Source of the DNA: Candidatus Buchananbacteria bacterium
GTDB lineage: Bacteria; Patescibacteriota; Patescibacteriia; 2-01-FULL-39-33
Length of the DNA stretch: 64,000 nucleotides
Direction: 5' to 3'
Assembly: GCA_041666945.1 (NCBI GenBank)
Contig: JBAYFY010000002.1
Span: 129,076 to 193,075, forward strand
Shown one piece after another: positions 3,232-60,200 of the stretch; the first letter of the stretch is position 1, and each line of letters starts with the position of its first letter. The position numbers were made by a program, and so were the translations under genes. The notes under the pieces are model-generated. The model was not told the DNA's origin. It searched no databases and worked only from the letters and a program-made list of their open reading frames with translations.

Positions 3232-4425
3232 CTAGCGAACTATTGATAATTTAACATCCGAACGGACTGTCTGACGGTAGCCCACGCCGTAGCGGCCTCG
3301 CAAATACCCATCCAGAATACCGCAACACTTTTGGTAGTGTGTTTCCCATTCTTTTATTTTTTGGGCGCTGAATTTTTCCGGATCCTTACCTTCCCGCAAG
3401 GCCTTGGCCTTAAGCCGGGCAAGAGTCGGGCCGTAGGGCTTTAGGGGGCCGATATGGACGCGCAAAGCGAAGTTTTCAATATTTCTTTCAATCATATTCA
3501 GCCATTTTACAAGCGTGTCCGGGTTGGGATTATACATTTGCGGGAAAATATCCAATCCCGCTTCCACCAGCGTGCGCAGGCAGAAAACCTGATCGGAAAT
3601 GGTGGCGTTAGCTTGAACGTTATCCCGCAGATTGGCGTTGTCTGTGCCTTTAATGGCCGCCAAAACCTTAACCGGAAAAACTGCCAGATGGCGGTAATAA
3701 TCAATCGGCCACAAGTGAGGGGTGGAGAGATTGGTGTCCACTTGCCCGACAATATCTTCTCCCCGTTCTTCAATCCGACGCCAGAGTTTAATGATCCAAT
3801 CCAGCGCTATGGTCGGTTCGCCGCCGGAAACGCGCAGGACTTTGATGTTCAAATCAACTCCGGTTTGTTTTTTGTAAATCTCTCGCACTTTATCCCGAGC
3901 CATTAAGAAGCTGTCAATAACGTCATCAACATCAACCAGCCATTTTTTTCCGGTTTCCCTTTGGCCGTCATTGAGTTCATTATCCACAAAACAATAAAGG
4001 CAGCCGCCGTCGCAGGCGCCGGAATGGAAATTGCAACCGGCCACCTGCAGGATAAACGGCGCATTATAATCTAAGGCACGAGACAATTCATAACCCGCAA
4101 TATGCTTGAACCACAAAGCGAAATCAAATTCCTGCTGCTTAAGGCATTCCTCAATTTCTCCCGGTGACAATCTGCTGGTATCAACAAATTTTTTGCCGTA
4201 AGCCCCAGCCGCTAAGGGGTCAACCTCTTTGGCGTTGAATTTAAAACGAAAAAGCTTTCGCCCGTCTTGGTTAGGCATTAATTCTATAACCTTACTGGTA
4301 TCCTTGCCTTGCAAGGTAGTGGAAAAATCAGCTACTAACAGTCGTCCGCCAGGCGTGACAATGGTTTGATGTAAGGCCTGCGCGCGTTCCAAGGGACTTG
4401 AGACATACGGTTGATCATTATTCAT
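3232..4425 (-). CDS. Radical SAM domain protein with ~130-aa unknown N-terminal domain
   Basis: AGCNFHSGACDGGCLYCF contains CxxxCxxC; GGE-like SGGEPT motif downstream; overlaps the upstream gene by 8 nt. Confidence 0.7.
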   Translation of the reverse strand: MNNDQPYVSSPLERAQALHQTIVTPGGRLLVADFSTTLQGKDTSKVIELMPNQDGRKLFRFKFNAKEVDPLAAGAYGKKFVDTSRLSPGEIEECLKQQEFDFALWFKHIAGYELSRALDYNAPFILQVAGCNFHSGACDGGCLYCFVDNELNDGQRETGKKWLVDVDDVIDSFLMARDKVREIYKKQTGVDLNIKVLRVSGGEPTIALDWIIKLWRRIEERGEDIVGQVDTNLSTPHLWPIDYYRHLAVFPVKVLAAIKGTDNANLRDNVQANATISDQVFCLRTLVEAGLDIFPQMYNPNPDTLVKWLNMIERNIENFALRVHIGPLKPYGPTLARLKAKALREGKDPEKFSAQKIKEWETHYQKCCGILDGYLRGRYGVGYRQTVRSDVKLSIVR

Positions 4426-4891
4426 AATCAGTTTCCCCCTCCTTTAAGAGTTTTATGAATTCTTGGGATAAATTCCGCAATCTTCTTCTGTCGTTTGCCG
4501 TTAGTGCTTTTAAAATTATTTCTCCCTGAAAATGCAGTTTTTTTAATAAAATGTAGCTTGAGCGGTTGGCGATGTTTATCTCGGTTATTAATTCGCTCAT
4601 TTCCATGCTCCACAAAGAAGTAAAAACCGAATTATCGTACCAATCTCCGTTTTGTCCGCGATAATAATGGTAGAATCGGCAATTCTTAAAGAAAACAGCA
4701 AAGCGTTTTTGCTCGCTTAATTTTTTCAGAATATTGCATATCCTGCCTATGCGGCTGTCAATTATCATCTGGCAACCGGTTGAACGACTGATTAGCTTTG
4801 GTCCGGAAAGATGGAAAATGGCGATGAGTAAATCCAATATGTCAAATTTTTCAGCCGGTGTTTTATTGCGCAGTTTTGTTGGCATATGCAT
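4418..4891 (-). CDS. Hypothetical protein with C-terminal winged-helix/HTH-like segment (probable start at MPTKLRNK)
   Basis: C-terminal SELITEINIANRSSYILLKKLHFQGEI resembles ArsR/MarR-type HTH; GAGGAGG RBS; own TTGACA-17-TAAGAT promoter upstream. Confidence 0.35.
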   Translation of the reverse strand: MHMPTKLRNKTPAEKFDILDLLIAIFHLSGPKLISRSTGCQMIIDSRIGRICNILKKLSEQKRFAVFFKNCRFYHYYRGQNGDWYDNSVFTSLWSMEMSELITEINIANRSSYILLKKLHFQGEIILKALTANDRRRLRNLSQEFIKLLKEGETDYE

Positions 4892-5031: not shown

Positions 5032-5937
5032 TTATTTTTTTAATTTTTTATCCCAGATGTTCCAGTCCACGATAAGACAGGAAGCAACGAAAATTGAGGA
5101 ATAAGTGCCGACAAAAATACCGACCAAAAGAGCCAAAGTGAAGTTTTTGGTGCTGACTCCGCCAAATAAGTATAAACAGAGCAGAACCAGCAAAACAGTC
5201 AAAGAAGTATTAATGGAACGCACTAAAGTTTGGTTGACTGAATCGTTAACCACCTCGTCAAATTTGCCGGTATAAAATTTACCTAAATTTTCCCTGGTGC
5301 GGTCAAATACAACAATAGTGTCATGCACCGAGAAACCCATAATGGTTAGAAGCGCGGTAATAAACAAACCGTCAACTTCTATGCCGGCAAAATGACCCAG
5401 GATGGCAAATAAACCGATAACGATGACGATGTCGTGAATTAAGGCCAAAATGGCGGAAACCCCGTATTTCCAAGAAGCTACCGGTTTGGAGACCTTGCGG
5501 AAAGCAAAGGCGATGTAAAGAATAATGCCTAAAGAGGCCACGCCAATGGCCATCCAGGCCTTCTTTTGCAGTTCTTGGCCGATCACTGGGCCGATGGATT
5601 CAAATCTTAACTCCCTGGCTTGGCCGGGAAAATTATTTTCAATGGCTTGCAAAATCTGCTGGTGCTGTTCTTCGTTGACGTTTTGGAATTTTAAAATGAT
5701 GTTTTTATCGCCCGATGGCTGGACAATCACTTCGCCTAAGCTAAGCGATTCAGTCGCTTTCTGAATTTCCGCGGTTTGCGGCCGATTTTCCGTAAAGGTC
5801 AGTTCCAAAAGCGATCCGCCGGTGAAATCCAGGCCCGGTTTAAGACCCCAGGCGATAATCGCCAGAACGGACACGACAAATAACAAACCGGAAACCAGAT
5901 AATAATATTTGCGATTCTTAATGATTTGTAGTTTCAT
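5032..5937 (-). CDS. secF: Protein translocase subunit SecF
   Basis: MKLQIIKNRKYYYLVSGLLFVVSVLAIIAWGLKPGLDFTGGS... SecF signature. Confidence 0.9.
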   Translation of the reverse strand: MKLQIIKNRKYYYLVSGLLFVVSVLAIIAWGLKPGLDFTGGSLLELTFTENRPQTAEIQKATESLSLGEVIVQPSGDKNIILKFQNVNEEQHQQILQAIENNFPGQARELRFESIGPVIGQELQKKAWMAIGVASLGIILYIAFAFRKVSKPVASWKYGVSAILALIHDIVIVIGLFAILGHFAGIEVDGLFITALLTIMGFSVHDTIVVFDRTRENLGKFYTGKFDEVVNDSVNQTLVRSINTSLTVLLVLLCLYLFGGVSTKNFTLALLVGIFVGTYSSIFVASCLIVDWNIWDKKLKK

Positions 5938-5962: not shown

Positions 5963-7789
5963 TTAAATTTTTTTCTTAACGCCGTATAGCCATTTATTCT
6001 GCGCCCACTTCCATTTGGCGACTAAAAGCAGCAACTGGCGGCTGATGATAATGGCTGAAAACATGGAAACGGCAATGCCCAAAGCCAAAGTAAAGGCAAA
6101 GCCGCGAATAATGCTGGAGCCGAACCAAAACAAGACGGCGCAAGTGATTAAAGAAGAAAAATTGGAATCGCGAATTGAAGTCCAGGCGCGGCCGAAGCCG
6201 TCATCAATCGCTCTCATCAGGTCTTTGCCGGCGCGCAACTCTTCTTTCAGACGTTCAAAGATCAGGATATTGGCGTCTACGGCCATGCCAATGGACAGGA
6301 TGAAACCGGTAATGCCGGCTAAAGTCATGGTTACATGGATGACTTTAAATAAAGCCAAAGAGATGACGGTATAAATCAGCAAGGCGATTACCGACAATAA
6401 ACCGGGCAAGCGATAAAAGCAAATCATAAACAAAGCCACGGCCAGCAAGCCGAGAAAGCCGGCAAATAAACTTTTTTGTACCGCTTCCTGGCCTAAAGTG
6501 GCGCCTACGGTGGTTTGAGAGACCAATTTAACCGGTACAGGCAAAGCGCCAGCGTTTAAGCGTTGAGCCAGTTTTTTGGCTTCATCCTGGGTAAAATTGC
6601 CTTGAATTACGGCTTGGCCGCCCAAAATCGCCTCATTGACCTTGGGGATGGAGATAGCTACGCCGTCCAAGAAAATAGCAACCGGCTTGCCGACATTTCT
6701 GGTAGTGATATCGGCAAACAATTGCGCTCCCTCATTATCAAATTCCAAAGACACTTGCGGCACTAAAGCGGTTTGGTCGTATTCCACGGAGGCCTTCTTT
6801 AAGTTTTTGCCTGAAAGCTTGGTATTGATCCATTCCGGTTCTTGGGCGATACCCAAATCAGCCGAGGTTTTGGTTTTAAATAGAATATGCCGGACATTAA
6901 CCGTACGGCTGTCTCCGGTCCCCTGCTCACCTTCCAATTTAATGATATGATAGCCGAAAGTGGTTTTGACCAAATCGGAATAAACTTCGCCAACTTTTAG
7001 TTTATTGAAAGCGACATCGTCAAACTCCGTGACAAATTGCCCCTTGGCAACGCCTTCGTACAGTCCACCATTGTCCTTACTGCCGGGATCTTCGCTGTAT
7101 TGCTTGGCTAAAGCGATAAAATCGCCGCTGTTTTTGATTTGTTGCAAGATATCTACAGCTTGCTTGCGTACCGCCAAATTCATGTCGTCCAGCTGTTTTT
7201 GCTGTTCCAAGGTTAATTGTTGGGCTTGAGGATTTTCTTCTTTGAATTCCAAAAGAGGCGTTTCCCCGATCATTTTGATGGCGGAATTAATGTCGTAAAC
7301 GCCGGCTAATTCCACGCTGATGCGCGGTTTGTCGCCGGATAGAGAGGTTTGGACGATGGGCTCGGAAACGCCCAAAGCATTGACGCGTCGTTCAATGACA
7401 TCTTTGGCTCCGGCCAACGCGTCATTTTTGCCGGCTAAGGAAATCTGCGACAGGTCGGCGTCATAGGTTAATTGAGCTCCGCCCAGCAAATCCAAGCCCA
7501 AACGGAAAGGCAGGCCGTAAGATGACAGTTCAATTTGTTTAATATTGCGCCAAACTAACCGGCTGCTGTTATCGGAAATGTTTTTTTCCAATTTAGGGAA
7601 AATATTGAGATTAGAAACGACAGGAATGGCGGATAGGCCGGTATCCAAGGCGTTAGCTATCGGATTTTTGAAACCGATAATGTCAATGTAAGCGGTAATC
7701 AAAAATAAGACGGCAATACCAAAAAGCACCCAGCGAAGTCGGCCCCTTTGGCCGGGTTTTAGCATTTTTTCTAAGAAATTTTGCGGCAT
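5963..7789 (-). CDS. secD: Protein translocase subunit SecD with inserted parvulin-like PPIase module
   Basis: SecD TM/periplasmic architecture; internal segment ILQQIKNSGDFIALAKQYSEDPGSKDNGGLYEG...FGYHIIKLEGE aligns to PpiC. Confidence 0.85.
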   Translation of the reverse strand: MPQNFLEKMLKPGQRGRLRWVLFGIAVLFLITAYIDIIGFKNPIANALDTGLSAIPVVSNLNIFPKLEKNISDNSSRLVWRNIKQIELSSYGLPFRLGLDLLGGAQLTYDADLSQISLAGKNDALAGAKDVIERRVNALGVSEPIVQTSLSGDKPRISVELAGVYDINSAIKMIGETPLLEFKEENPQAQQLTLEQQKQLDDMNLAVRKQAVDILQQIKNSGDFIALAKQYSEDPGSKDNGGLYEGVAKGQFVTEFDDVAFNKLKVGEVYSDLVKTTFGYHIIKLEGEQGTGDSRTVNVRHILFKTKTSADLGIAQEPEWINTKLSGKNLKKASVEYDQTALVPQVSLEFDNEGAQLFADITTRNVGKPVAIFLDGVAISIPKVNEAILGGQAVIQGNFTQDEAKKLAQRLNAGALPVPVKLVSQTTVGATLGQEAVQKSLFAGFLGLLAVALFMICFYRLPGLLSVIALLIYTVISLALFKVIHVTMTLAGITGFILSIGMAVDANILIFERLKEELRAGKDLMRAIDDGFGRAWTSIRDSNFSSLITCAVLFWFGSSIIRGFAFTLALGIAVSMFSAIIISRQLLLLVAKWKWAQNKWLYGVKKKI

Positions 7790-7961: not shown

Positions 7962-9332
7962 ATGTCTAACTCTTATTCTACGGTTTGGAGCCGGTGCCGT
8001 TTGGCCACAAAAAGAGCCGCTATGCGTCTGGCCATTAAAATCGTCTCCCATTTGCCTGATCAAGGCCTGGTGGCGTTATCTTATGTGGCGGAAAAACTGA
8101 CTTACGGCAAGCCGGCCAAAACGGTCATTAAGCAATTCCGGGAATTAATTAAGATTAACCACCCCAGCATTGGCCTGGTGAGGAGGATTTTAAATGACAC
8201 CCAACCGCAAATTCGGAAAAAACTGGTGGATAACTTGATCATCAATGGTTTTCTATTGAATCAAGAAAAAAAATTGGCGGCCACGGCTGTTGGCGAAGCC
8301 GTGCCCACCACTATTTTGATCAGCCCGACCATGCGTTGCAATCTTAACTGCGTCGGTTGTTATGCCGGTAATTACAATAAGGCCGATGACCTGACATTTT
8401 TCGTTTTTGACCGGATTATTCGGGAAGCCAAGGATATGGGCGTATCTTTTTTCACCCTTTTGGGCGGTGAACCGCTGTTTTACCCTCATTTGTTTGATAT
8501 CTTAGAAAAACATCAGGACGTTTTTTTTCAGTGTTATACTAATGGCACATTGATTGACGGGGCTATGGCCGATAAAATTTCCGCTGTCGGCAACGTCTTG
8601 CCGATTTTGAGCATTGAAGGCCACGAAAAAGAAACTGATGAACGGCGCGGCGCTGGCGTTCATGAAAAAGTGCTGAAAGCCATGGATATCCTCAAGAGCC
8701 GGAAAATTCCTTTTGGTTTTTCCGTTGCCGTTACCAATAAAAACGCCGAACTGATTTCCAGCGATGAATTTATTGACGACATGATCAAACGCGGCGCTTA
8801 CCTGGGTTGGTTTTTCCTCTATATGCCCGTGGGCAAGGGCCCGGATTTAAGTTTGATGCCGACTCCGGCCCAAAGACGGATGCTGGTGGATCGCGTTGCT
8901 CATATCCGCGAGACCAAGCCATTGTTTATTGTTGATTTTTGGAACGACGCGCCGTTTGTCGGCGGCTGCATTGCCGGCAAGGAATACGTGCACATCACCT
9001 CCAAAGGCGATGTGGAGCCGTGCATCTTTACTCATTTCGCTGTGGACAATATAAAGGATAAGTCGCTCAAAGAAGTGATGAACTCGGATTTTTTCCGCGA
9101 TTTGCGCCGCCGCCAGCCCTATAATGAAAATTTGTATATGCCTTGCATGTGGATTGATAATCCCGAGGTCAGCCGCGAGGTCATCGCCCAGTTTCATGCC
9201 TACCCCACTCACGAGGGCGCTGATGATGTGTTGGTTAAAGAGGAGTTGAAAGCCGGCGTTGACGCTTATGCAGCCAAGATCAAAGAGATTTACGATCCGC
9301 TCTGGGAGAAGATGAGCCAGCCGAAAAAATAA
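7962..9332 (+). CDS. Radical SAM protein with C-terminal Cys-rich (SPASM/twitch-like) domain and ~100-aa unknown N-terminal extension
   Basis: MRCNLNCVGCYAGNY (CxxxCxxC), LLGGEPLF, C-terminal GGCIAGKEY...EPCIFTH...MPCMWID cysteines. Confidence 0.7.
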   Translation: MSNSYSTVWSRCRLATKRAAMRLAIKIVSHLPDQGLVALSYVAEKLTYGKPAKTVIKQFRELIKINHPSIGLVRRILNDTQPQIRKKLVDNLIINGFLLNQEKKLAATAVGEAVPTTILISPTMRCNLNCVGCYAGNYNKADDLTFFVFDRIIREAKDMGVSFFTLLGGEPLFYPHLFDILEKHQDVFFQCYTNGTLIDGAMADKISAVGNVLPILSIEGHEKETDERRGAGVHEKVLKAMDILKSRKIPFGFSVAVTNKNAELISSDEFIDDMIKRGAYLGWFFLYMPVGKGPDLSLMPTPAQRRMLVDRVAHIRETKPLFIVDFWNDAPFVGGCIAGKEYVHITSKGDVEPCIFTHFAVDNIKDKSLKEVMNSDFFRDLRRRQPYNENLYMPCMWIDNPEVSREVIAQFHAYPTHEGADDVLVKEELKAGVDAYAAKIKEIYDPLWEKMSQPKK

Positions 9333-36194: not shown

Positions 36195-39100
36195 TTATAA
36201 TTTGTTACCTAATATATTCTTAGCTTTTAAATAAGCCAGCACGGCAAAGGCGGCTTTTTTCTCCACCTCGCTCAAATCGTTCTGCGCTAATTCTACTATT
36301 TTTTCCATCAAATTGACAGCCGCGTTCTTGTCTTCAGTTGCGCCAGCCACCACAAATCGGCCCAAAAAATCCTGCATCATCTGCATCAGCTTGTTGCCTG
36401 CCGGTGTTTCGTCTTTTTCCGGTTGTTCGGCCAGTTTCCGCCGTTCCTTATCGACTGCGCCGGCCAGCTCCAATATGGCCTCCCCTTGCTGGTAGGGGTT
36501 AGCCAAATCCAGTTGGTGTATGGGCGTATACCAGTAATAATTAAGCAAACTCTCAATAATCGCCAAGTGCGATTCTTTGACTTGGTATTTTAGGATGCTG
36601 TTTAACACCCGTTCCAGTTCGCCATTGGACATCTTGCGGACGGTTTCCGCGTCTAACCGGTTCAGGCCGTCAATAATCTCCTGGACTCTTTTGATCGCTT
36701 CCGCCGATTGCCCTTTCTCCTTGCTGATTGACTCTTGTTCTTGTTCAACAAGCGACGGCAGAGAAACTCCGATTACGCCGTCAGGCGTGCCGTCAACACT
36801 GATCACTCTGCTCTTGCCTGCCTCATCGGGCCAAACCACAAACGCCGTAGCGTGAGCGTGTTTCATTCTGACGATTTTGTCTTGTCCGCCAAAACCCACG
36901 ATTACGCCCGAGGCCAAACCGGCGCGCCTTAGCAGGGTGGCGGTCAGCTGGGCGAAGTCAGCGCAAACGCCGGCAAACTTTTTGCCTCTTAGCTCTGGGG
37001 CTAATTCCGGTTTTTGTTGTCGCAGTTCCTCCAGCCGTTGCTCCATGACATACAGTTGCTCTTCCAGCGGTTTGCCTCTTTTTAGTTCATTGACTTCCTG
37101 ATTGTTTTGATCATAGTAACCCAAGTCGCGCACCAGGCGTTCAATTGCCATCACTTGCTCTTTTGGATTCTTGCCCTCAATGACAGACAAAAGTTCTAAT
37201 TCCAAGTCCTCCGGTATGTTGGCCAAAATCTTGGTTAAATCTTGTCCGCCGGTTGTTTCCAATTGTTTTTTAAATAGCTTATATTCGCGCTGATTCAAAT
37301 CTCTCAATGGTTCCGGCGCCTGGGCTACGGCTATGGAATAGACAATCTTCTCTACCCCGCTCGGCTTATTCACCACTTTGGCTTCTCCCAGATTATTCAC
37401 TTCTATCTCCAAATCATGCTCCCGGCCTTGAGCGTCAAAACCTTTGACGCGTTCCGGAATTATTCTGGCTTCCAAGGTTTTGGGCAAAGACACCGCAGAC
37501 AGGTTTTTGACATTGGGCAGGGTGGCTGTGGTTTCTATGGCCGGTTCAATCAGCGGGGCGCTAACAGAAAAATCAACCGTTTCCCAGCGTTTGGACGAAG
37601 GGTTGTACCGGCCGTAAATATTAGTGGCGATGATACTCCCTAAGGCCTCGCGAAACTCCATTACTTCCCGATCATCATTCATTAGTTCTATGCCCCCGCC
37701 GACCAGTTCTTGGTTGGAATTGGGGTTAAGGCAGTCCTCGGGGCCGGCTGATCCGGCCGGCCGGCCGCCTCTTTCCAGGCCGGAATAGCCGGAAAACCCG
37801 TGCCAAGCCGTCTCCTTTTCGGCTTGCAGTATTTCCGGAAAAATCTTAATCGACAACTGTTGGGCAAAAACCTCGGGCAAACGATCGCGCTTGGCCGGCA
37901 GAGTATCTAAGAATAATTTCGGTTCTTCGCTGATGATTCTGTTTATGATGCCGGTAACAAAGCGGTTGCCACTAAGCAATTTTTTCCAGCCCGGCTTGGC
38001 GCTGCCTTTCTCCTTAGTGTTTTTTTCTGCGAAGTGCTTGTATATTTTATCACTGGTTGGGTGATGAAGCAGATTAAGCGTATCCAGCCGTTCTTGTTCC
38101 TCCTTAGTTAATTCTTTTGCCTTATTTGTTTTCTCTTTTAGTTTTAATTGCCAAACGAAAGTAATATAATCGCCGGCCAAGCCCCCGGCAATATGACCTT
38201 TATCAACCCCGTCCTTGATAAATTGCTCTCTCATCTCCCAGGCGCGATCCGAGTCCAGGCCGGATAAACCCCAGGTGATATAACCTTTACCAACCCCGTC
38301 TTTGATAAATTGCTCTCTCATCTCCCAGGCGCGATCCGAGTCCAGGCCGGCCAAGCCCTCGGCGATATAACCTTTATCAATTCCGTCTTTGATAAATTGC
38401 TCTCTCATCTCCCAGGCGCGATCCGAGTCCAGGCCGGATAGGCCCGCAGCTATATAATTTTTATGAACCCCATCCTTGATAAATTGCTCTCTGATAAATT
38501 GCTCTCTCATCTCCCAGGCGCGATCCGAGTTCAGGCCGGATAGGCCCGCAGCTATAAAATCTTTATCAACCCCGTCCTTGATAAATTGCTCTCTCATCTC
38601 CCAGGCGCGATCCGAGTCCAGGCCGGATAGGCCCCAGGTGATATAATCTTTATCAGCCCCGTCTTTGATAAATTGCTCTCTCATCTCCCAGGCGCGATCC
38701 GAGTCCAGGCCGGATAGGCCCATAGCGATATGACCTTTATCAACCCCGTCCTTGATAAATTGCTCTCTCATTTCCCAGGCGCGATCCGAGTCCAGGCCGG
38801 ATAAACCCCAGGCGATATAATTTTTATCAATTCCGTCTTTGATAAATTGCTCTCTCATTTCCCAGGCGCGATCCGAGTCCAGGCCGGATAGGCCCATAGC
38901 GATATAATCTTCATCAGCCCCGTCTTTAATTAGTTTATCTATGTAATCCAGCGCCTTGTCTTCAAACTTAGCAAAATCAAATTCTTTCTGCTCCGTCTTT
39001 TTTTCCTGCGCCAACTGGAATTTTTTAAGCTGTTCTATGAATTGTTCATCACGGATTTCCAAGATAAAACTCCCTGTTGAATTTTTTTCGTATTTGCCAA

Positions 39101-40994
39101 TAATGTTAATTTTTCCATTCTCATAATATAACTCATTAACTTTTTTAAATGGAACAAACCCTTCAGTGGTTATGCGACCGGTATCAATATTATACAATCC
39201 TTCAAATCCGCCGGATCTAACCATACTGGACATATCTGTGAAACCTAACTTCATTCCAGCCAATTCATAAACGTCGCGTCCGAGTGATTTTTCAGTTAGC
39301 AACTTGGCCTCAATTCTTCCTTCCGGCGGTAGATTCTCAATTTTTTCTATATATTTGGCTCTAAGTTTAATATCATCCGCATCTATGCCGTGCCTTTGGC
39401 CCGGAACGCCAATATCTATGTTTAAATTTGCTGACCCGCCGTCTTTGAATACGCCCTTAAGATAAATCGTGCCATCTTCATAATATAAACTGTCTATACG
39501 CGAGATAAAAGGAAAGGTGTCGGTGATAAATGCCCAGGATTTACAATCAACAAATGCTTGTCCATCATTTACAACGCCTAATTTGACTTTTATGCCGCCA
39601 AGTTGGTAGATATCTTCGTCTTTTATTCTTTCTAAAAATTTACCCTCAATCCTTTTATGCGGTTTTTTTTCTTTTTTCTCCCCCGCTTCCAGTCGGCGGA
39701 TTTTATCCACATCCAAAGTCACCTCTTGTATTTTGTTCGGCCCGCCCCACTCTGGCCCTTTTTCAATAATTTTTAATTTTCTACCAATGCGTTCTACGGC
39801 GACTAAATCATTTTGCACCATTAAAGCTTCTCCCGCATGGCAATTTTTTCCTCCAATTTCAGTACTAACAACAGCTGTTCCGTTATTTCGAGAACGCATA
39901 TCGAATTGCCTGCCGTTAATTGTAAAAGAACCACCTCTAACATTTACTGCCTGCTCCGGTGTCATATCATCCCAGCCGTCTGACGGTTTTTCTTTCTCCT
40001 TACCTTTCTCCTTATCCTCCACCACTTCATACTTATCCCCCGTCAGCTGGACTTTCTGTTCGCGGTTTTTGAGCGATTCGTTCAGTTTTTTGACCAGACC
40101 ATTTTCGGCTTGCAGGGTTTTTATGCCCACAGTGGAAGAAATATACCTGGCGTGCTTAAGCCGGGGCTTTATATCCTCAAATGGTATGCCCAGGCGGTCG
40201 CATTCCTTCTCAATATCGTCGGTCACGATAAAAATCTCATCAGCCGACAGGCGGAATTCGCCTTCAATCCGATGCTGTTTTTGATAACGCCGGATGATTT
40301 CCCTGACTGATTCGGAATAATACGTCGGAAACAGCAAAAGCTGCTGTTGCCATAAGGCCTCGTCAGCCAGTTGTTCCGAGCTTTTTATCTCTCGCGTCTC
40401 GCCGGCCTTCAAACCCTTAACCTTTTCGCCGACCGGATATTCGCTGTGGACTTTTGCCGGCATTATTTGCCGCGTCTTTAGTAGTGGGGCGTAATAACTA
40501 TCAATTTTATCTAATAATTTATTGCCGCGGCGCAAGTCCCTCTCCTGCTCTAATTTTTCTTCAAATTCAGACCAATCCTTAGATTCTCTGGCCGGCAGAA
40601 CATGATTATCCCAAAAATCTATCATTTTCTCTATAATCGCCCAGTGTTTTTTGTTGTTTTTAAGGGCTTGCCAAACTTTCTTGCCAGAATCGCCCGGCAA
40701 CGTTTGAGGTATGGATAACACGTCTTTTAAAATTTGATTATGTTTTATCACAAATCCGGGCGACATGACCACCTCGGCTAATTCTTCCTCATTCAAGTTA
40801 AGCCGGCTATTCAACTGCAGGCCGTCTTCAACCGAATGCTCAAAAACACGCTTAGCCGCTTCCAGAGTTTGCCGTCTGTTTTTCTGTTCAGTGATTTGCG
40901 CAAAAAGCTCCTCGCGTTTTGTGCGCGCGGCTGATTCCGGTTGTTCTATTTTTATTTTTTCAGCGTTTATTGTCGGCCGTCTTAGCGTCGGCAT
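36195..40994 (-). CDS. Giant (1599 aa) protein: transglutaminase-like Cys-His-Asp core plus nine tandem 29-aa helical repeats
   Basis: GVCADFA...HAHATAFVVW...ISVDGTPDG TGc triad order; repeats GLSGLDSDRAWEMREQFIKDGxDKxYIAx; no signal peptide obvious. Confidence 0.7.
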   Translation of the reverse strand: MPTLRRPTINAEKIKIEQPESAARTKREELFAQITEQKNRRQTLEAAKRVFEHSVEDGLQLNSRLNLNEEELAEVVMSPGFVIKHNQILKDVLSIPQTLPGDSGKKVWQALKNNKKHWAIIEKMIDFWDNHVLPARESKDWSEFEEKLEQERDLRRGNKLLDKIDSYYAPLLKTRQIMPAKVHSEYPVGEKVKGLKAGETREIKSSEQLADEALWQQQLLLFPTYYSESVREIIRRYQKQHRIEGEFRLSADEIFIVTDDIEKECDRLGIPFEDIKPRLKHARYISSTVGIKTLQAENGLVKKLNESLKNREQKVQLTGDKYEVVEDKEKGKEKEKPSDGWDDMTPEQAVNVRGGSFTINGRQFDMRSRNNGTAVVSTEIGGKNCHAGEALMVQNDLVAVERIGRKLKIIEKGPEWGGPNKIQEVTLDVDKIRRLEAGEKKEKKPHKRIEGKFLERIKDEDIYQLGGIKVKLGVVNDGQAFVDCKSWAFITDTFPFISRIDSLYYEDGTIYLKGVFKDGGSANLNIDIGVPGQRHGIDADDIKLRAKYIEKIENLPPEGRIEAKLLTEKSLGRDVYELAGMKLGFTDMSSMVRSGGFEGLYNIDTGRITTEGFVPFKKVNELYYENGKINIIGKYEKNSTGSFILEIRDEQFIEQLKKFQLAQEKKTEQKEFDFAKFEDKALDYIDKLIKDGADEDYIAMGLSGLDSDRAWEMREQFIKDGIDKNYIAWGLSGLDSDRAWEMREQFIKDGVDKGHIAMGLSGLDSDRAWEMREQFIKDGADKDYITWGLSGLDSDRAWEMREQFIKDGVDKDFIAAGLSGLNSDRAWEMREQFIREQFIKDGVHKNYIAAGLSGLDSDRAWEMREQFIKDGIDKGYIAEGLAGLDSDRAWEMREQFIKDGVGKGYITWGLSGLDSDRAWEMREQFIKDGVDKGHIAGGLAGDYITFVWQLKLKEKTNKAKELTKEEQERLDTLNLLHHPTSDKIYKHFAEKNTKEKGSAKPGWKKLLSGNRFVTGIINRIISEEPKLFLDTLPAKRDRLPEVFAQQLSIKIFPEILQAEKETAWHGFSGYSGLERGGRPAGSAGPEDCLNPNSNQELVGGGIELMNDDREVMEFREALGSIIATNIYGRYNPSSKRWETVDFSVSAPLIEPAIETTATLPNVKNLSAVSLPKTLEARIIPERVKGFDAQGREHDLEIEVNNLGEAKVVNKPSGVEKIVYSIAVAQAPEPLRDLNQREYKLFKKQLETTGGQDLTKILANIPEDLELELLSVIEGKNPKEQVMAIERLVRDLGYYDQNNQEVNELKRGKPLEEQLYVMEQRLEELRQQKPELAPELRGKKFAGVCADFAQLTATLLRRAGLASGVIVGFGGQDKIVRMKHAHATAFVVWPDEAGKSRVISVDGTPDGVIGVSLPSLVEQEQESISKEKGQSAEAIKRVQEIIDGLNRLDAETVRKMSNGELERVLNSILKYQVKESHLAIIESLLNYYWYTPIHQLDLANPYQQGEAILELAGAVDKERRKLAEQPEKDETPAGNKLMQMMQDFLGRFVVAGATEDKNAAVNLMEKIVELAQNDLSEVEKKAAFAVLAYLKAKNILGNKL
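38180..38935 (-). repeat. In-frame 87-bp tandem coding repeats (x9) inside the giant gene
   Basis: ggcgcgatccgagtccaggccgga recurs every 87 bp. Confidence 0.85.
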
Positions 40995-58154: not shown

Positions 58155-59441
58155 TTAAACTTTCTCGCATATAGCAACCATTAATTTTTCCAATACCTCT
58201 TTATATCTCGATAAAATTTCTCTATGGAGCATCGACCAATTATCATCCTTATAATAATCAAATAATTTCTCTTTTATTAAAATATCAGTCAGTTCTGTCG
58301 TAATTTCTTCGTCGGGATGAGCCAGTTTGGAAACAATGCGATTAATATTTCTAAGACCATAAATACCGGGGTCAACATTTATTTTTCTTTCTAATAATAT
58401 AAAATAAAATTTATTTATGCTTCCTTTTAAATCTTTTATTTCGAATTCATTAGACATTTCTTTTGTAATTTCTAATTTAATAATTTCATCATCAAAATTC
58501 CCCAACATAGATCTTAATACTATACAGTAACCAACTAACATGGCCTTATCCTTAGCTGGCTTTCCTTGTTGATATATTTCTTCTGATGACGAAAAAATAG
58601 GAAAGCCGAACTTCTCATCAATCAAGCTAAATTTATTTATTCTAACCCTTAATTCTGCAATAGCACTGATAATATCCGCAGTCTGATATTCTTCCCTTAT
58701 TTCATTTTGTTCTTTTATCTCCTTGCCTTGCTTTTCTTTATCCTTATTTAATTGTTCTTTTTGCAATATCTCTTTAGCTCTTTCAGAACCCAACTCTAAT
58801 ATTCTTTGATGAACTAATGGCACTATCCCATTTCGCCATGTAGAAATTTCTTCTACAAAAATAATTTCGGTTTTTTTTCCTACAATGAAATTATAGTTAT
58901 CATAATAAAAATTAATATATTCCTTCGGCTTAACTTTTAAAAGTTTTTTAAGTGCTATTTTTCTTGTCTCAATAGTTTGTCTGTCATCTTCGAAACATTT
59001 TTTTAAAAAAAACTCTATTTCTACCATATCCTCGCCCGATTTTTCAAGATACACAAAGCATTTCTCTAAATCATATTCTTTAATTTCTCCTAAAGTTATA
59101 TTAGCTTCGAATATTATTTTTATTTTTTTAACAATCTCGTTGTGAAAATATTGAATATCCGTCAAATACCCTATCATCATAGCAATATCACCATCTTTAT
59201 CGGTTGTGTGTGCAATTTCTTTTAATATTTCAGCGGAGTCTCCAGTCTTAAAATATGTTAAATCGCTCACAAAATAATGGGAGACCGAAGTTTTTCTAAA
59301 TTTTTTATATGCTTCGTATATTTGTCTTGGGAATATAGCGTCACCAATTTTAACCATCTCATCAGAAATATGGGTTGCCTTTTCTGCATTTTCAGCAGAA
59401 TAAAGATCAGCTATTAAGTTTGCATTATAATCAGAGGCCAT
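58155..59441 (-). CDS. Hypothetical protein, strongly AT-rich (about 28% GC) cargo gene
   Basis: 428 aa; composition sharply different from housekeeping genes. Confidence 0.45.
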   Translation of the reverse strand: MASDYNANLIADLYSAENAEKATHISDEMVKIGDAIFPRQIYEAYKKFRKTSVSHYFVSDLTYFKTGDSAEILKEIAHTTDKDGDIAMMIGYLTDIQYFHNEIVKKIKIIFEANITLGEIKEYDLEKCFVYLEKSGEDMVEIEFFLKKCFEDDRQTIETRKIALKKLLKVKPKEYINFYYDNYNFIVGKKTEIIFVEEISTWRNGIVPLVHQRILELGSERAKEILQKEQLNKDKEKQGKEIKEQNEIREEYQTADIISAIAELRVRINKFSLIDEKFGFPIFSSSEEIYQQGKPAKDKAMLVGYCIVLRSMLGNFDDEIIKLEITKEMSNEFEIKDLKGSINKFYFILLERKINVDPGIYGLRNINRIVSKLAHPDEEITTELTDILIKEKLFDYYKDDNWSMLHREILSRYKEVLEKLMVAICEKV

Positions 59442-59628: not shown

Positions 59629-59633
59629 ATTGG

Positions 59634-59704
59634 CTGCGGGTCAGGGACTCGAACCCCGATAACATCCTCCAGAGGGATGCGTCCTACCATTAGACGAACC
59701 CGCA
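59634..59704 (-). tRNA. tRNA-Gln (anticodon CTG)
   Basis: Hand-folded: acceptor TGCGGGT/ACCCGCA (U1-A72), D-arm GTCT/GGAC, anticodon loop CTCTGGA, T-arm CGGGG-TTCGAGT-CCCTG, discriminator G. Confidence 0.8.
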
Positions 59705-59797: not shown

Positions 59798-60200
59798 ACT
59801 GAATATGACGGATAGCTACTCTTTGGCTTAGGCCAAAGGGAGGAAAGTCCGAACACCCTTTCTGGCGCAAGCCGGGATGTCGCGGTAATGGGTAACGCCC
59901 ACCCGGACGGTCGCAAGGCCGGCCGAGGACCAGTTCCACAGAGACAATACTAACGAGATACGCAAGTATTTCGTGAAAGGTGAAAAGTGTGATGGTGTCT
60001 TAAACTAAGCAAGAGATATCTCCTTAGCTTAAAGCTACGTCACTCGGCCTCCAGCAATGGAGAGCTTGTGGTAAACTCTACCTGGTGCAACCTCGTTTTG
60101 AGGGCTTGATCATGCCGGTAACGGCAATGACAGACAGATGGCTATCATCCGTTCCGTTAAGGAACGGATACAGAATTCGGCTTACAGTCATATTCAGTTA
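59798..60200 (+). ncRNA. rnpB: RNase P RNA (bacterial type A-like)
   Basis: P4 strands GGAGGAAAGTCCGAAC and ACAGAATTCGGCTTA; GGTAACGCC, CCACAGAGA, GAAAGGTGAAAAGTG conserved blocks; P1 CTGAATATGAC/GTCATATTCAG. Confidence 0.75.

What the first reader, a model, noticed from the sequence alone, without database searches (positions are those of the whole stretch)
5963..7789. SecD with an inserted, apparently circularly permuted parvulin-type PPIase domain
Within the periplasmic head of SecD the segment AVRKQAVDILQQIKNSGDFIALAKQYSEDPGSKDNGGLYEGVAKGQFVTEFDDVAFNKLKVGEVYSDLVKTTFGYHIIKLEGE aligns well with E. coli PpiC helices through the final beta-strand (FGYHIIK). The strand equivalent to the PpiC N-terminal beta-1 (ALHILVK) appears after it as RTVNVRHILFKTKT. 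A foldase module built into the translocon motor subunit would couple export with prolyl isomerisation. I am not aware of this as a described SecD feature.
Basis: partly seen in the sequence, partly recalled or inferred. Interest (0 to 1): 0.5.

Follow-up and report, generated by a model that had tools for sequence, protein, structure and literature searches.

The report
SecD carrying a circularly permuted parvulin
The protein-export motor subunit SecD of this ultra-small (Patescibacteria/CPR) bacterium carries a built-in prolyl-isomerase (parvulin) domain whose first strand has moved to its end, which suggests that export and folding are physically joined in one protein.

Summary
ORF 5963-7789(-) is a 608-aa SecD (TIGR01129, 380 bits), followed by secF. 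Residues 186-319 are a significant parvulin insert (PF13616 E 2e-22; PF00639 E 1e-18), placed just after the P1 base-to-head hinge strand LEFKE. The HMM match lacks beta1 on its N-terminal side. A conserved strand after beta4 (TVNVRHILFK, 296-305) supplies it. Four lines of evidence support this:
- Moving the strand in front of the body raises PF00639 from 71.4 to 77.4 bits and extends coverage to profile position 1. Shuffled controls do not.
- Covariation couples the strand to beta4, beta2 and two helices.
- Its His301 is lost together with the beta4 His.

The tetrad D234/H301/H281/T276 is kept in over 90% of relatives. The architecture occurs in at least 80 Patescibacteria species genomes. 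An insert-less relative and double-insert forms also exist. Databases already show the Pfam domains on these proteins, but I found no paper describing the fusion or a permuted parvulin. The likely role is a cis-acting PrsA-like foldase on the translocon; this is inferred, not shown. I rate it a new variant of known kinds, of moderate-to-good interest.

The parts
5963..7789 (-). secD ORF, 608 aa: N-terminal TM helix, periplasmic P1 domain with the insert, and a C-terminal membrane domain
   Evidence: ORF; TIGR01129 379.7 bits; Pfam architecture; Foldseek of the full-length model to SecDF 5xan/5yhf/3aqp, E 1e-20 to 1e-23
7232..7408 (-). P1 base, N-terminal part (residues 128-186, Pfam SecD_1st), ending in the hinge strand PLLEFKE (178-184)
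   Evidence: PF21760 E 4.5e-16. Aligns to T. thermophilus SecDF residues 33-132. Strand E180-185 in the model.
6833..7234 (-). Whole insert (residues 186-319) between the hinge strand and the P1 head. The insert-less relative P0089 has only a linker here: 25 aa by the alignment columns, 27 aa by the sequence anchors.
   Evidence: Alignment A1; insert-length census; comparison with 3AQP, where ours 324-591 matches Tt 159-426
6923..7210 (-). Parvulin body (residues 194-289): long helix alpha1 (194-219), alpha2 (224-231), loop with catalytic D234, beta2 (243-248), helix (254-263), beta3/beta4 (about 274-289) with T276 and H281
   Evidence: PF13616/PF00639. PrsA 6vj6 E 6e-18. AF2 secondary structure. 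Foldseek to 6vj4, 84 columns at 1.0 A.
6905..6922 (-). Hairpin loop (residues 290-295) joining beta4 to the displaced strand. This is the junction where the ancestral C- and N-termini would have met. Its length varies, and in the double-insert forms a second, canonical parvulin occupies this position.
   Evidence: three loci have about 20 extra residues here; double inserts
6875..6904 (-). Displaced beta1 strand TVNVRHILFK (residues 296-305) carrying H301, the equivalent of Pin1 H59 / PpiC H8
   Evidence: Translation. pLDDT block 99 and DSSP strand in the isolated-insert model. Re-permutation gain of +6 bits with profile coverage from position 1. H301 108/121, I302 120/121, L303 116/121. DCA couplings to beta4, beta2, alpha1 and alpha3.
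6536..6823 (-). P1 head subdomain (residues 323-418)
   Evidence: PF22599 E 4.8e-31, profile 19-114/114, the same coverage as in insert-less P0089
6014..6529 (-). SecD membrane domain (residues 421-592) with the invariant GMAVDAN motif (D505)
   Evidence: PF02355; invariant columns; alignment to 3AQP 'AAVDGN'
5032..5937 (-). secF, 301 aa, the partner subunit, 25 nt downstream of secD
   Evidence: TIGR00966 294.7 bits; PF02355 E 3e-59

Best explanation
This is a genuine SecD. A parvulin-type PPIase domain has been inserted into the periplasmic P1 domain, directly after the base-to-head hinge strand (LEFKE) and before the P1 head. The parvulin is circularly permuted. It begins with helix alpha1 and runs to beta4. 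A short hairpin then leads into the strand TVNVRHILFK, which fills the central beta1 slot between beta2 and beta4 and contributes His301 to the catalytic tetrad D234-H301-H281-T276. Because the tetrad is conserved, the most likely function is a cis-acting PrsA-like foldase held at the exit of the Sec channel. On this reading, chains pulled out by the proton-driven SecDF P1 head meet a prolyl isomerase and binding surface immediately, and the domain is carried along by the head's swinging motion. What is shown: SecD identity, the parvulin insert, the missing N-terminal beta1, conservation of the downstream strand, the predicted fold, and the taxonomic spread. What is inferred: the exact strand pairing (no coordinates were seen), enzymatic activity, and coupling to translocation. 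My sub-confidences are about 0.99 for the insert being a parvulin, about 0.85 for the permutation, and about 0.5 for catalytic foldase function in cis.
Against: No coordinates or contact map could be inspected, so the beta1-slot assignment rests on DSSP in an isolated-domain model and on covariation from only about 136 effective sequences. Some MI signal (243-246 with 298-299) may reflect clade structure. The bit-score gain on re-permutation is modest at about 6 bits. The DCA pairs (index sums 584-586) do not fix the beta4/beta1 register. In this lineage the widespread GGDLG motif reads GGLYEG (L243), and its effect on activity is unknown. Parvulin domains with intact-looking residues can be poor enzymes and act mainly as chaperones, so conservation of the tetrad does not prove catalysis. 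A close relative without the insert (P0089, 63% identical) shows that SecD works without it. Whether these genomes lack a separate PrsA, PpiD or SurA was not tested.
Confidence: 0.6

Rival explanations
1. The insert is a permuted parvulin fold, but it works as a non-catalytic substrate-binding (holdase) or spacer module that enlarges the P1 head, as in the inactive parvulin domains of PpiD and SurA P1. It would not act as a prolyl isomerase.
Against: The tetrad D234/H301/H281/T-S276 is kept in 107 of 114 single-insert proteins and 73 of 75 species loci. That differs from known inactive parvulins, which to my knowledge have lost these residues. When a second parvulin is present, exactly one intact tetrad is preserved, which argues for selection on the active site.
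Confidence: 0.25
2. The downstream strand RTVNVRHILFK is only a vestige of the beta1 of a lost second parvulin, as in tandem SurA-like proteins. On this reading it is not part of the fold, and the parvulin is simply truncated.
For: The strand aligns to the beta1 that precedes the second parvulin body in the tandem protein 8hm4 (RINTRHILLKPKVS). Double-insert SecDs exist.
Against: A vestige would decay, but I302 is kept in 120/121, L303 in 116/121 and H301 in 108/121. AF2 makes it the most confident strand of an isolated-domain model. It covaries with beta4, beta2, alpha1 and alpha3. Its His is lost together with the beta4 His of the upstream body. Without a beta1 the parvulin sheet would lack its central strand.
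Confidence: 0.04
3. The parvulin is not permuted, and the SecD hinge strand PLLEFKE, just upstream, serves as its beta1.
For: That strand lies immediately N-terminal to the insert and is a beta-strand (E180-185).
Against: Including it gives no HMM gain (70.8 bits, profile still from position 12, protein 8). The insert folds at pLDDT 92 without it. It is conserved equally in insert-less SecDs such as P0089 and T. thermophilus. It shows no covariation with the parvulin strand set; the best pair involving the displaced strand is at rank 278. It also lacks the His.
Confidence: 0.03
4. The architecture is an assembly or gene-calling artefact, for example a chimeric contig or two fused ORFs.
For: The source is most likely a metagenome-assembled genome.
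Against: The reading frame is uninterrupted, with SecD sequence on both sides. The same architecture appears in 119 of the 120 best database hits from many independent samples, and in 80 of the 80 best loci from different GTDB species genomes at 43-92% identity.
Confidence: 0.01

Closest known systems
Canonical SecD/SecDF (T. thermophilus 3AQP/5YHF, D. radiodurans 5XAM/5XAN)
   Same: Same scaffold: TM1, P1 base and head, an RND-like membrane domain with the conserved AVDxN Asp, and a secF partner.
   Different: Thermus has about 38 residues between the hinge strand LEFR and the conserved part of the head, and P0089 has about 25-27. Here there are 138, forming a separate parvulin domain.
PrsA of Firmicutes (for example B. 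anthracis 6VJ6/6VJ4, B. subtilis 1ZK6)
   Same: Closest parvulin by sequence and fold (E 6e-18; 43-46% identity; 84 columns at 1.0 A). It is an extracytoplasmic, membrane-tethered foldase acting on Sec substrates, which is the function proposed here.
   Different: PrsA is a separate lipoprotein, and its parvulin has the canonical order (beta1 first) inserted into an N/C helical chaperone domain. Here no chaperone domain was detected by Pfam, the anchor is SecD itself, and the strand order is permuted.
Translocon-associated parvulin chaperones acting in trans: PpiD-YfgM at SecYEG, SurA at the holo-translocon/SecDF, and Mycoplasma Mdp444 (Mpn444) with SecDF
   Same: A parvulin-containing folding factor positioned at the periplasmic or extracellular exit of the Sec machinery, in two cases contacting SecDF (PMC9643414; PMC9987972; bioRxiv 10.1101/2025.04.25.650208; 10.1101/2024.09.05.611430).
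   Different: Those are separate polypeptides that bind non-covalently. Here the parvulin is covalently built into SecD at the moving hinge.
Bacteroides SurA-like tandem-parvulin PPIase, the BfUbb target (PDB 8HM3/8HM4)
   Different: It is a soluble periplasmic chaperone with an N-terminal chaperone region, an additional His-less beta1-like strand before body 1, and a second degenerate body after the strand. Whether its body 1 is completed by the following strand, as proposed here, could not be checked without coordinates.

Membership tests
SecD (protein translocase subunit SecD, TIGR01129) | Scores above the curated cutoff of the SecD equivalog-domain model | tested here: met
   379.7 bits against a cutoff of 244.4, covering residues 97-587 and model positions 1-397
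SecD (protein translocase subunit SecD, TIGR01129) | Architecture: N-terminal TM helix, periplasmic P1 base and head, C-terminal SecD_SecF membrane domain | tested here: met
   Pfam SecD_1st, SecDF_P1_head and SecD_SecF_C. The AF2 full-length model has helices 14-37 and 433-591. Foldseek to SecDF structures gives E 1e-20 to 1e-23.
SecD (protein translocase subunit SecD, TIGR01129) | Partner secF gene adjacent or fused | tested here: met
   secF lies 25 nt downstream; TIGR00966 294.7 bits
SecD (protein translocase subunit SecD, TIGR01129) | Conserved membrane-embedded Asp of the proton pathway (the AVDxN motif; Asp340 in T. thermophilus, numbering from my own knowledge) | tested here: met
   D505 in GMAVDAN is invariant in A1 and A4 and aligns to 'AAVDGN' of 3AQP. 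Proton transport itself is not testable here.
Parvulin-type PPIase domain (Pfam PF00639 / PF13616) | Significant match to the family HMMs above gathering score | tested here: met
   PF13616 80.1 bits (cutoff 22.5); PF00639 68.2 bits (cutoff 21.7)
Parvulin-type PPIase domain (Pfam PF00639 / PF13616) | Parvulin fold: four-stranded antiparallel sheet packed by helices | tested here: met
   [not shown]
Parvulin-type PPIase domain (Pfam PF00639 / PF13616) | Canonical element order, with beta1 at the N-terminus before alpha1 | tested here: not met
   The HMM match starts at profile position 12-13. The region before alpha1 is helix (H187-190, H194-219). The beta1 equivalent follows beta4. The domain is therefore a circular permutant of the family, not a canonical member.
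Parvulin-type PPIase domain (Pfam PF00639 / PF13616) | Catalytic tetrad (Pin1 C113/H59/H157/T152; Par14 D74/H42/H123/T118; mapping from my own knowledge) | tested here: met
   D234, H301, H281 and T276 are present. Conservation is 120, 108, 118 and 121 (T/S) of 121, and 73/75 species loci have all four.
Parvulin-type PPIase domain (Pfam PF00639 / PF13616) | Peptidyl-prolyl cis/trans isomerase activity | not testable with these tools
   Needs an enzymatic assay
PrsA/SurA/PpiD-type foldase chaperones | Parvulin embedded in a helical N/C chaperone (SurA_N / trigger-factor-like) domain | tested here: not met
   No SurA_N or related Pfam hit was found in the 608-aa protein. The flanks of the insert are SecD P1 base and head.
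PrsA/SurA/PpiD-type foldase chaperones | Extracytoplasmic location at the membrane or translocon | tested here: met
   The insert lies within the periplasmic P1 domain, between TM1 and the membrane domain of SecD. Topology is inferred from SecDF structures.
Circular permutant of a known domain | All elements of the parent domain are present in cyclically shifted order, and restoring the parent order improves the match | tested here: met
   The re-permuted sequence covers PF00639 positions 1-96 and gains about 6 bits in two proteins. Five controls show no gain.
Circular permutant of a known domain | The displaced element occupies its original place in the 3D fold | tested here: inconclusive
   Supported by DSSP strand assignment in an isolated-domain model and by covariation with beta4, beta2, alpha1 and alpha3. 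No coordinates were available to check contacts or register.

The most novel reading that the evidence does not exclude
In a large part of the Patescibacteria, SecDF is a single-polypeptide translocation-folding machine. A catalytically active, circularly permuted parvulin sits on the proton-driven P1 hinge. Each power stroke that pulls a segment out of SecYEG would then also present it to a prolyl isomerase, and this module would replace a separate PrsA/PpiD-type foldase in these minimal genomes. The permutation, which moves the attachment points to the opposite pole of the domain, would be what orients the active site toward the emerging chain. The double-insert forms would be a nested parvulin-within-parvulin.
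Probability: 0.3. Interest if true: 0.75.

Novelty: new variant of a known kind. Interest (0 to 1): 0.55.

Why it matters
Recent work shows that parvulin foldases (PpiD, SurA, PrsA-like Mycoplasma proteins) dock non-covalently on the Sec machinery, partly through SecDF. A natural covalent fusion found in many species is Rosetta-stone-type evidence that SecDF and parvulin foldases act on the same substrate at the same moment. It also offers a compact system for testing how pulling and folding are coupled.

It would be, as far as I could find, the first described natural circular permutant of the parvulin fold. Related single, double (apparently nested) and insert-less forms lay out an evolutionary series.

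It also bears on how ultra-small CPR bacteria with reduced genomes organise envelope protein biogenesis.

Tried and rejected
1. I tried an AFDB (afdb50) fold search with the insert model, to see whether the permuted topology occurs in other families. The library was not available.

2. I tried to establish how PDB 8HM3/8HM4 is wired. The original paper (Nat Microbiol 2024, doi 10.1038/s41564-023-01541-5) is not held, and the related Nat Commun paper does not describe the domains. Bacteroides homologues gave the sequence order but not the pairing, so this stays a lead only.

3. Literature searches for a SecD-parvulin/PPIase fusion, for SecD with PpiC in CPR, and for a circularly permuted parvulin found nothing describing either. 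That is absence in this library, not proof of absence.

4. I searched the 64-kb window for any other parvulin gene with an HMM built from the inserts. None was found. This covers only a small part of the genome, so it says little about whether a separate PrsA exists.

5. I considered that the GGDLG-to-GGLYEG change removes the catalytic Asp. I rejected this because the catalytic Cys/Asp equivalent is D234 in YSEDPGS, which is conserved in 120/121.

6. I considered the SecD hinge strand as a substitute beta1 and rejected it.

7. Determining the beta4/beta1 register from DCA pair sums (584-586) was inconclusive.

8. The E<=1e-30 count from the 50%-identity representative search (11 clusters) underestimates the family, because many representatives are fragments. 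I did not use it as a size estimate.

Full report
**Observation.** It is SecD: TIGR01129 scores 379.7 bits against a cutoff of 244.4. Pfam finds SecD_1st at 128-186, SecDF_P1_head at 323-418 and SecD_SecF_C at 421-592. secF follows 25 nt downstream at 5032-5937 (TIGR00966, 294.7 bits). Between the two P1 pieces, Pfam finds a PpiC-type rotamase: PF13616 at 185-285 (E 2.3e-22) and PF00639 at 202-286 (E 1.3e-18), both far above their gathering scores. The closest solved relative is B. anthracis PrsA 6vj6 (E 6e-18). The PF00639 match starts at profile position 13 of 97, so the N-terminal beta1 of a normal parvulin is absent where it should be.

**Insert boundaries.** A close relative without the insert, P0089 (500 aa, 63% identical), has only a short linker between PLLEFKE and W..T.L(S/T)GK: 25 aa by alignment columns or 27 aa by sequence anchors. 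The window protein has about 134 aa between the same points. Against T. thermophilus SecDF (3AQP), residues 95-199 align to Tt 33-132 and residues 324-591 align to Tt 159-426. The module therefore sits in the variable stretch directly after the base-to-head hinge strand. The P1-head HMM covers the same profile positions (19-114) in the insert-bearing and insert-less proteins, so the head itself is intact.

**Is the parvulin circularly permuted?** Five independent lines say yes.
- *Re-permutation test.* The body alone (192-289) scores 71.4 bits on PF00639, with coverage from profile position 12. Placing residues 292-309 in front raises this to 77.4 bits with coverage of positions 1-96, and raises PF13616 from 81.3 to 88.8 bits. 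Three shuffled strands, the reversed strand and the native upstream SecD context all score 70.7-71.0 bits, with coverage still starting at 11-12. Homologue P0110 behaves the same way (70.0 to 75.8 bits).
- *Structure prediction.* The insert alone (residues 186-325, 66-sequence alignment) folds with mean pLDDT 92.4 and pTM 0.84. Residues 296-305 are a DSSP strand forming a hairpin after beta4 (279-289), with the highest confidence block in the model (99). DSSP assigns a strand only to residues with bonded partners, and nothing but the insert is in this construct, so the partners must be parvulin strands. The full-length model reproduces the same elements, and the insert is its most confident region.
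- *Conservation.* Across 121 proteins the strand is as conserved as the core motifs: I302 120, L303 116, K307 109, H301 108. Of 75 species-level loci, 73 carry the full tetrad D-(T/S)-H-H.
- *Covariation (177 unique sequences, Meff 136).* The strongest DCA coupling in the 165-column alignment is 289-296. Further couplings link the strand to beta4 (286-300, 287-298, 286-298), to beta2 (243-298; MI rank 1), to helix 254-263 (256-299, 260-299) and to alpha1 (207-304). The SecD hinge strand shows essentially no coupling to it. A strand flanked by beta4 and beta2 and packed by helices on both faces matches the central beta1 position of parvulins (sheet order 2-1-4-3, from my own knowledge).

**Correlated histidine loss.** Mapped to Pin1 and Par14 (own knowledge), the tetrad is D234 / H301 / H281 / T276, with H301 on the displaced strand. 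Among 114 single-insert proteins, 107 have both histidines. The only two that lack the beta4 His (P0076 and P0079, H->F) also lack the strand His (H->T). A subfamily of about 685-712 aa carries two parvulin bodies in the order body1 - beta1 - body2 - trailing strand. In 15 such proteins:
- body 1 has lost its beta4 His in 15/15;
- the trailing strand has lost its His in 10/14;
- the middle beta1 keeps its His in 15/15;
- body 2 keeps its beta4 His in 14/15.

Pfam reads that second unit as a complete canonical parvulin (profile positions 1-93). The trailing strand therefore follows the fate of the first body, not of its immediate neighbour. This fits a nested arrangement, with a canonical parvulin inserted into the beta4-to-beta1 hairpin of the permuted one. 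It also means that one intact tetrad per SecD is maintained.

**Distribution.** Of the 120 best database hits, 119 carry PF00639 together with the SecD domains. They are labelled Patescibacteria, Buchananbacteria, Falkowbacteria or Uhrbacteria. A scan of one genome per GTDB species found 472 confirmed relatives. All of the best 80 cover the whole 180-aa flank-insert-flank query at 43-92% identity. They come from Patescibacteria MAGs, additionally including Kuenen-, Komeili- and Moranii-bacteria and Paceibacter. The closest is JBAZRV010000003.1, at 92%. The feature is thus a lineage-wide trait, and assembly artefact is excluded.

**Function (inference).** SecDF is thought to use the proton-motive force to swing the P1 head and pull substrates out of SecYEG (background in bioRxiv 10.1101/2025.04.25.650208). 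Parvulin foldases are known to dock there in trans:
- SurA on the holo-translocon via SecDF periplasmic domains (PMC9987972);
- PpiD-YfgM on SecYEG (PMC9643414);
- the PrsA-like, PPIase-active Mdp444/Mpn444 cross-linked to SecDF in Mycoplasma, where substrate density contacts its PPIC domain (bioRxiv 10.1101/2025.04.25.650208 and 10.1101/2024.09.05.611430).

The module here is most similar to PrsA parvulins, keeps the catalytic tetrad, and has aromatic or hydrophobic residues at the proline-pocket positions (Y244, F252, F256, by alignment to Pin1 L122, M130, F134). It is tethered at the moving hinge. The best-supported reading is a cis-acting PrsA-like foldase and binding site for emerging chains.

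Canonical parvulins already have adjacent termini. So the permutation is not needed for insertion as such. It moves the attachment points to the opposite pole of the domain, which would re-orient the active face relative to SecD. That point is my inference.

The main rival is a non-catalytic holdase or spacer role. It is supported by the clade-specific GGLYEG motif in place of GGDLG, and by retention of the degenerate outer domain in the double forms.

**Comparison with what is known.** The scaffold passes every SecD test. The insert passes the HMM, fold and active-site tests for parvulins but fails the canonical-order test, so it is a permutant rather than a standard member. It is not a PrsA/SurA/PpiD-type protein, because no helical chaperone domain was detected. 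Public collections already attach the Pfam domains to these proteins, which are named simply SecD. Six literature searches found no description of the fusion or of a permuted parvulin.

1. a His-less strand;
2. a body with a beta4 His;
3. an RGD turn;
4. an RHILLK strand;
5. a degenerate second body.

This order hints that the same body-plus-following-strand pairing may already exist in a solved structure. I could not verify that.

**Limits.**
- No model coordinates were accessible.
- Covariation depth is modest and partly confounded by phylogeny.
- Enzymatic activity, coupling to translocation, and absence of a separate PrsA in these genomes are untested.

**Verdict.** It is a new variant of known kinds: SecD plus parvulin, fused and permuted. 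Interest is about 0.55.

Noticed in passing
Related proteins P0087, P0100, P0106, P0111, P0113, P0117, P0242, P0245, P0247, P0254, P0280, P0284, P0290, P0322 (no counterpart in the window): A subfamily of SecDs of about 685-712 aa carries two parvulin bodies in the order body1 - beta1 - body2 - trailing strand. The outer pair (body 1 and the trailing strand) has lost the dual histidines, while the inner canonical unit keeps them. This suggests a parvulin nested inside the hairpin of a permuted parvulin.
   Followed up: partly
[not shown]
   Followed up: partly
Protein P0089 (500 aa): A SecD 63% identical to the window protein lacks the parvulin entirely and has only a short linker (25-27 aa). 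The insert has therefore been lost, or gained, recently within this clade, and SecD can function without it.
   Followed up: partly
window 7505-7672 (-), SecD residues 40-95: There is a lineage-specific periplasmic extension between TM1 and the conserved GLDL motif. It is predicted as a helix plus two short strands at modest confidence (pLDDT about 66-72). It is absent from more distant insert-bearing SecDs such as P0110 and P0115.
   Followed up: no
window 7063-7065 (-), residue L243, and clade relatives: The widespread parvulin GGDLG motif reads GGLYEG or GGFY.. in this clade (L 63, F 19, D 28 of 121). This is not the catalytic Asp, which is D234, but it lies next to the proline-pocket residue and covaries strongly with residues 298-299 of the displaced strand.
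   Followed up: partly
window 7962-9332 (+), 3232-4425 (-), 4418-4891 (-): secDF is flanked by two radical-SAM genes: a 456-aa radical SAM + SPASM protein upstream on the other strand, and a 397-aa weak radical-SAM protein downstream. A 157-aa ORF without Pfam hits overlaps the latter by 8 nt. This could be a peptide-modification cluster.
   Followed up: no
window 36195-40994 (-): A 1599-aa ORF with a transglutaminase-like core near its C-terminus lies in the stretch with the strongest GC skew of the window (-0.24 at 38-40 kb).
   Followed up: no
window 58155-59441 (-), next to tRNA-Gln (59631-59704) and RNase P RNA (59800-60200): A 428-aa ORF with no Pfam hit lies in a markedly AT-rich stretch (GC 0.33, against about 0.45 for the window).
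   Followed up: no
Loci L003, L006, L007, L009, L011 and many others: Many third-party-assembled MAG contigs carrying this Patescibacteria-type SecD are titled 'uncultured Gammaproteobacteria bacterium'. One 2.6-kb contig is labelled Endomicrobiaceae and one Saccharibacteria. These labels look like placeholders or mis-binning rather than real occurrences outside the clade.
   Followed up: no
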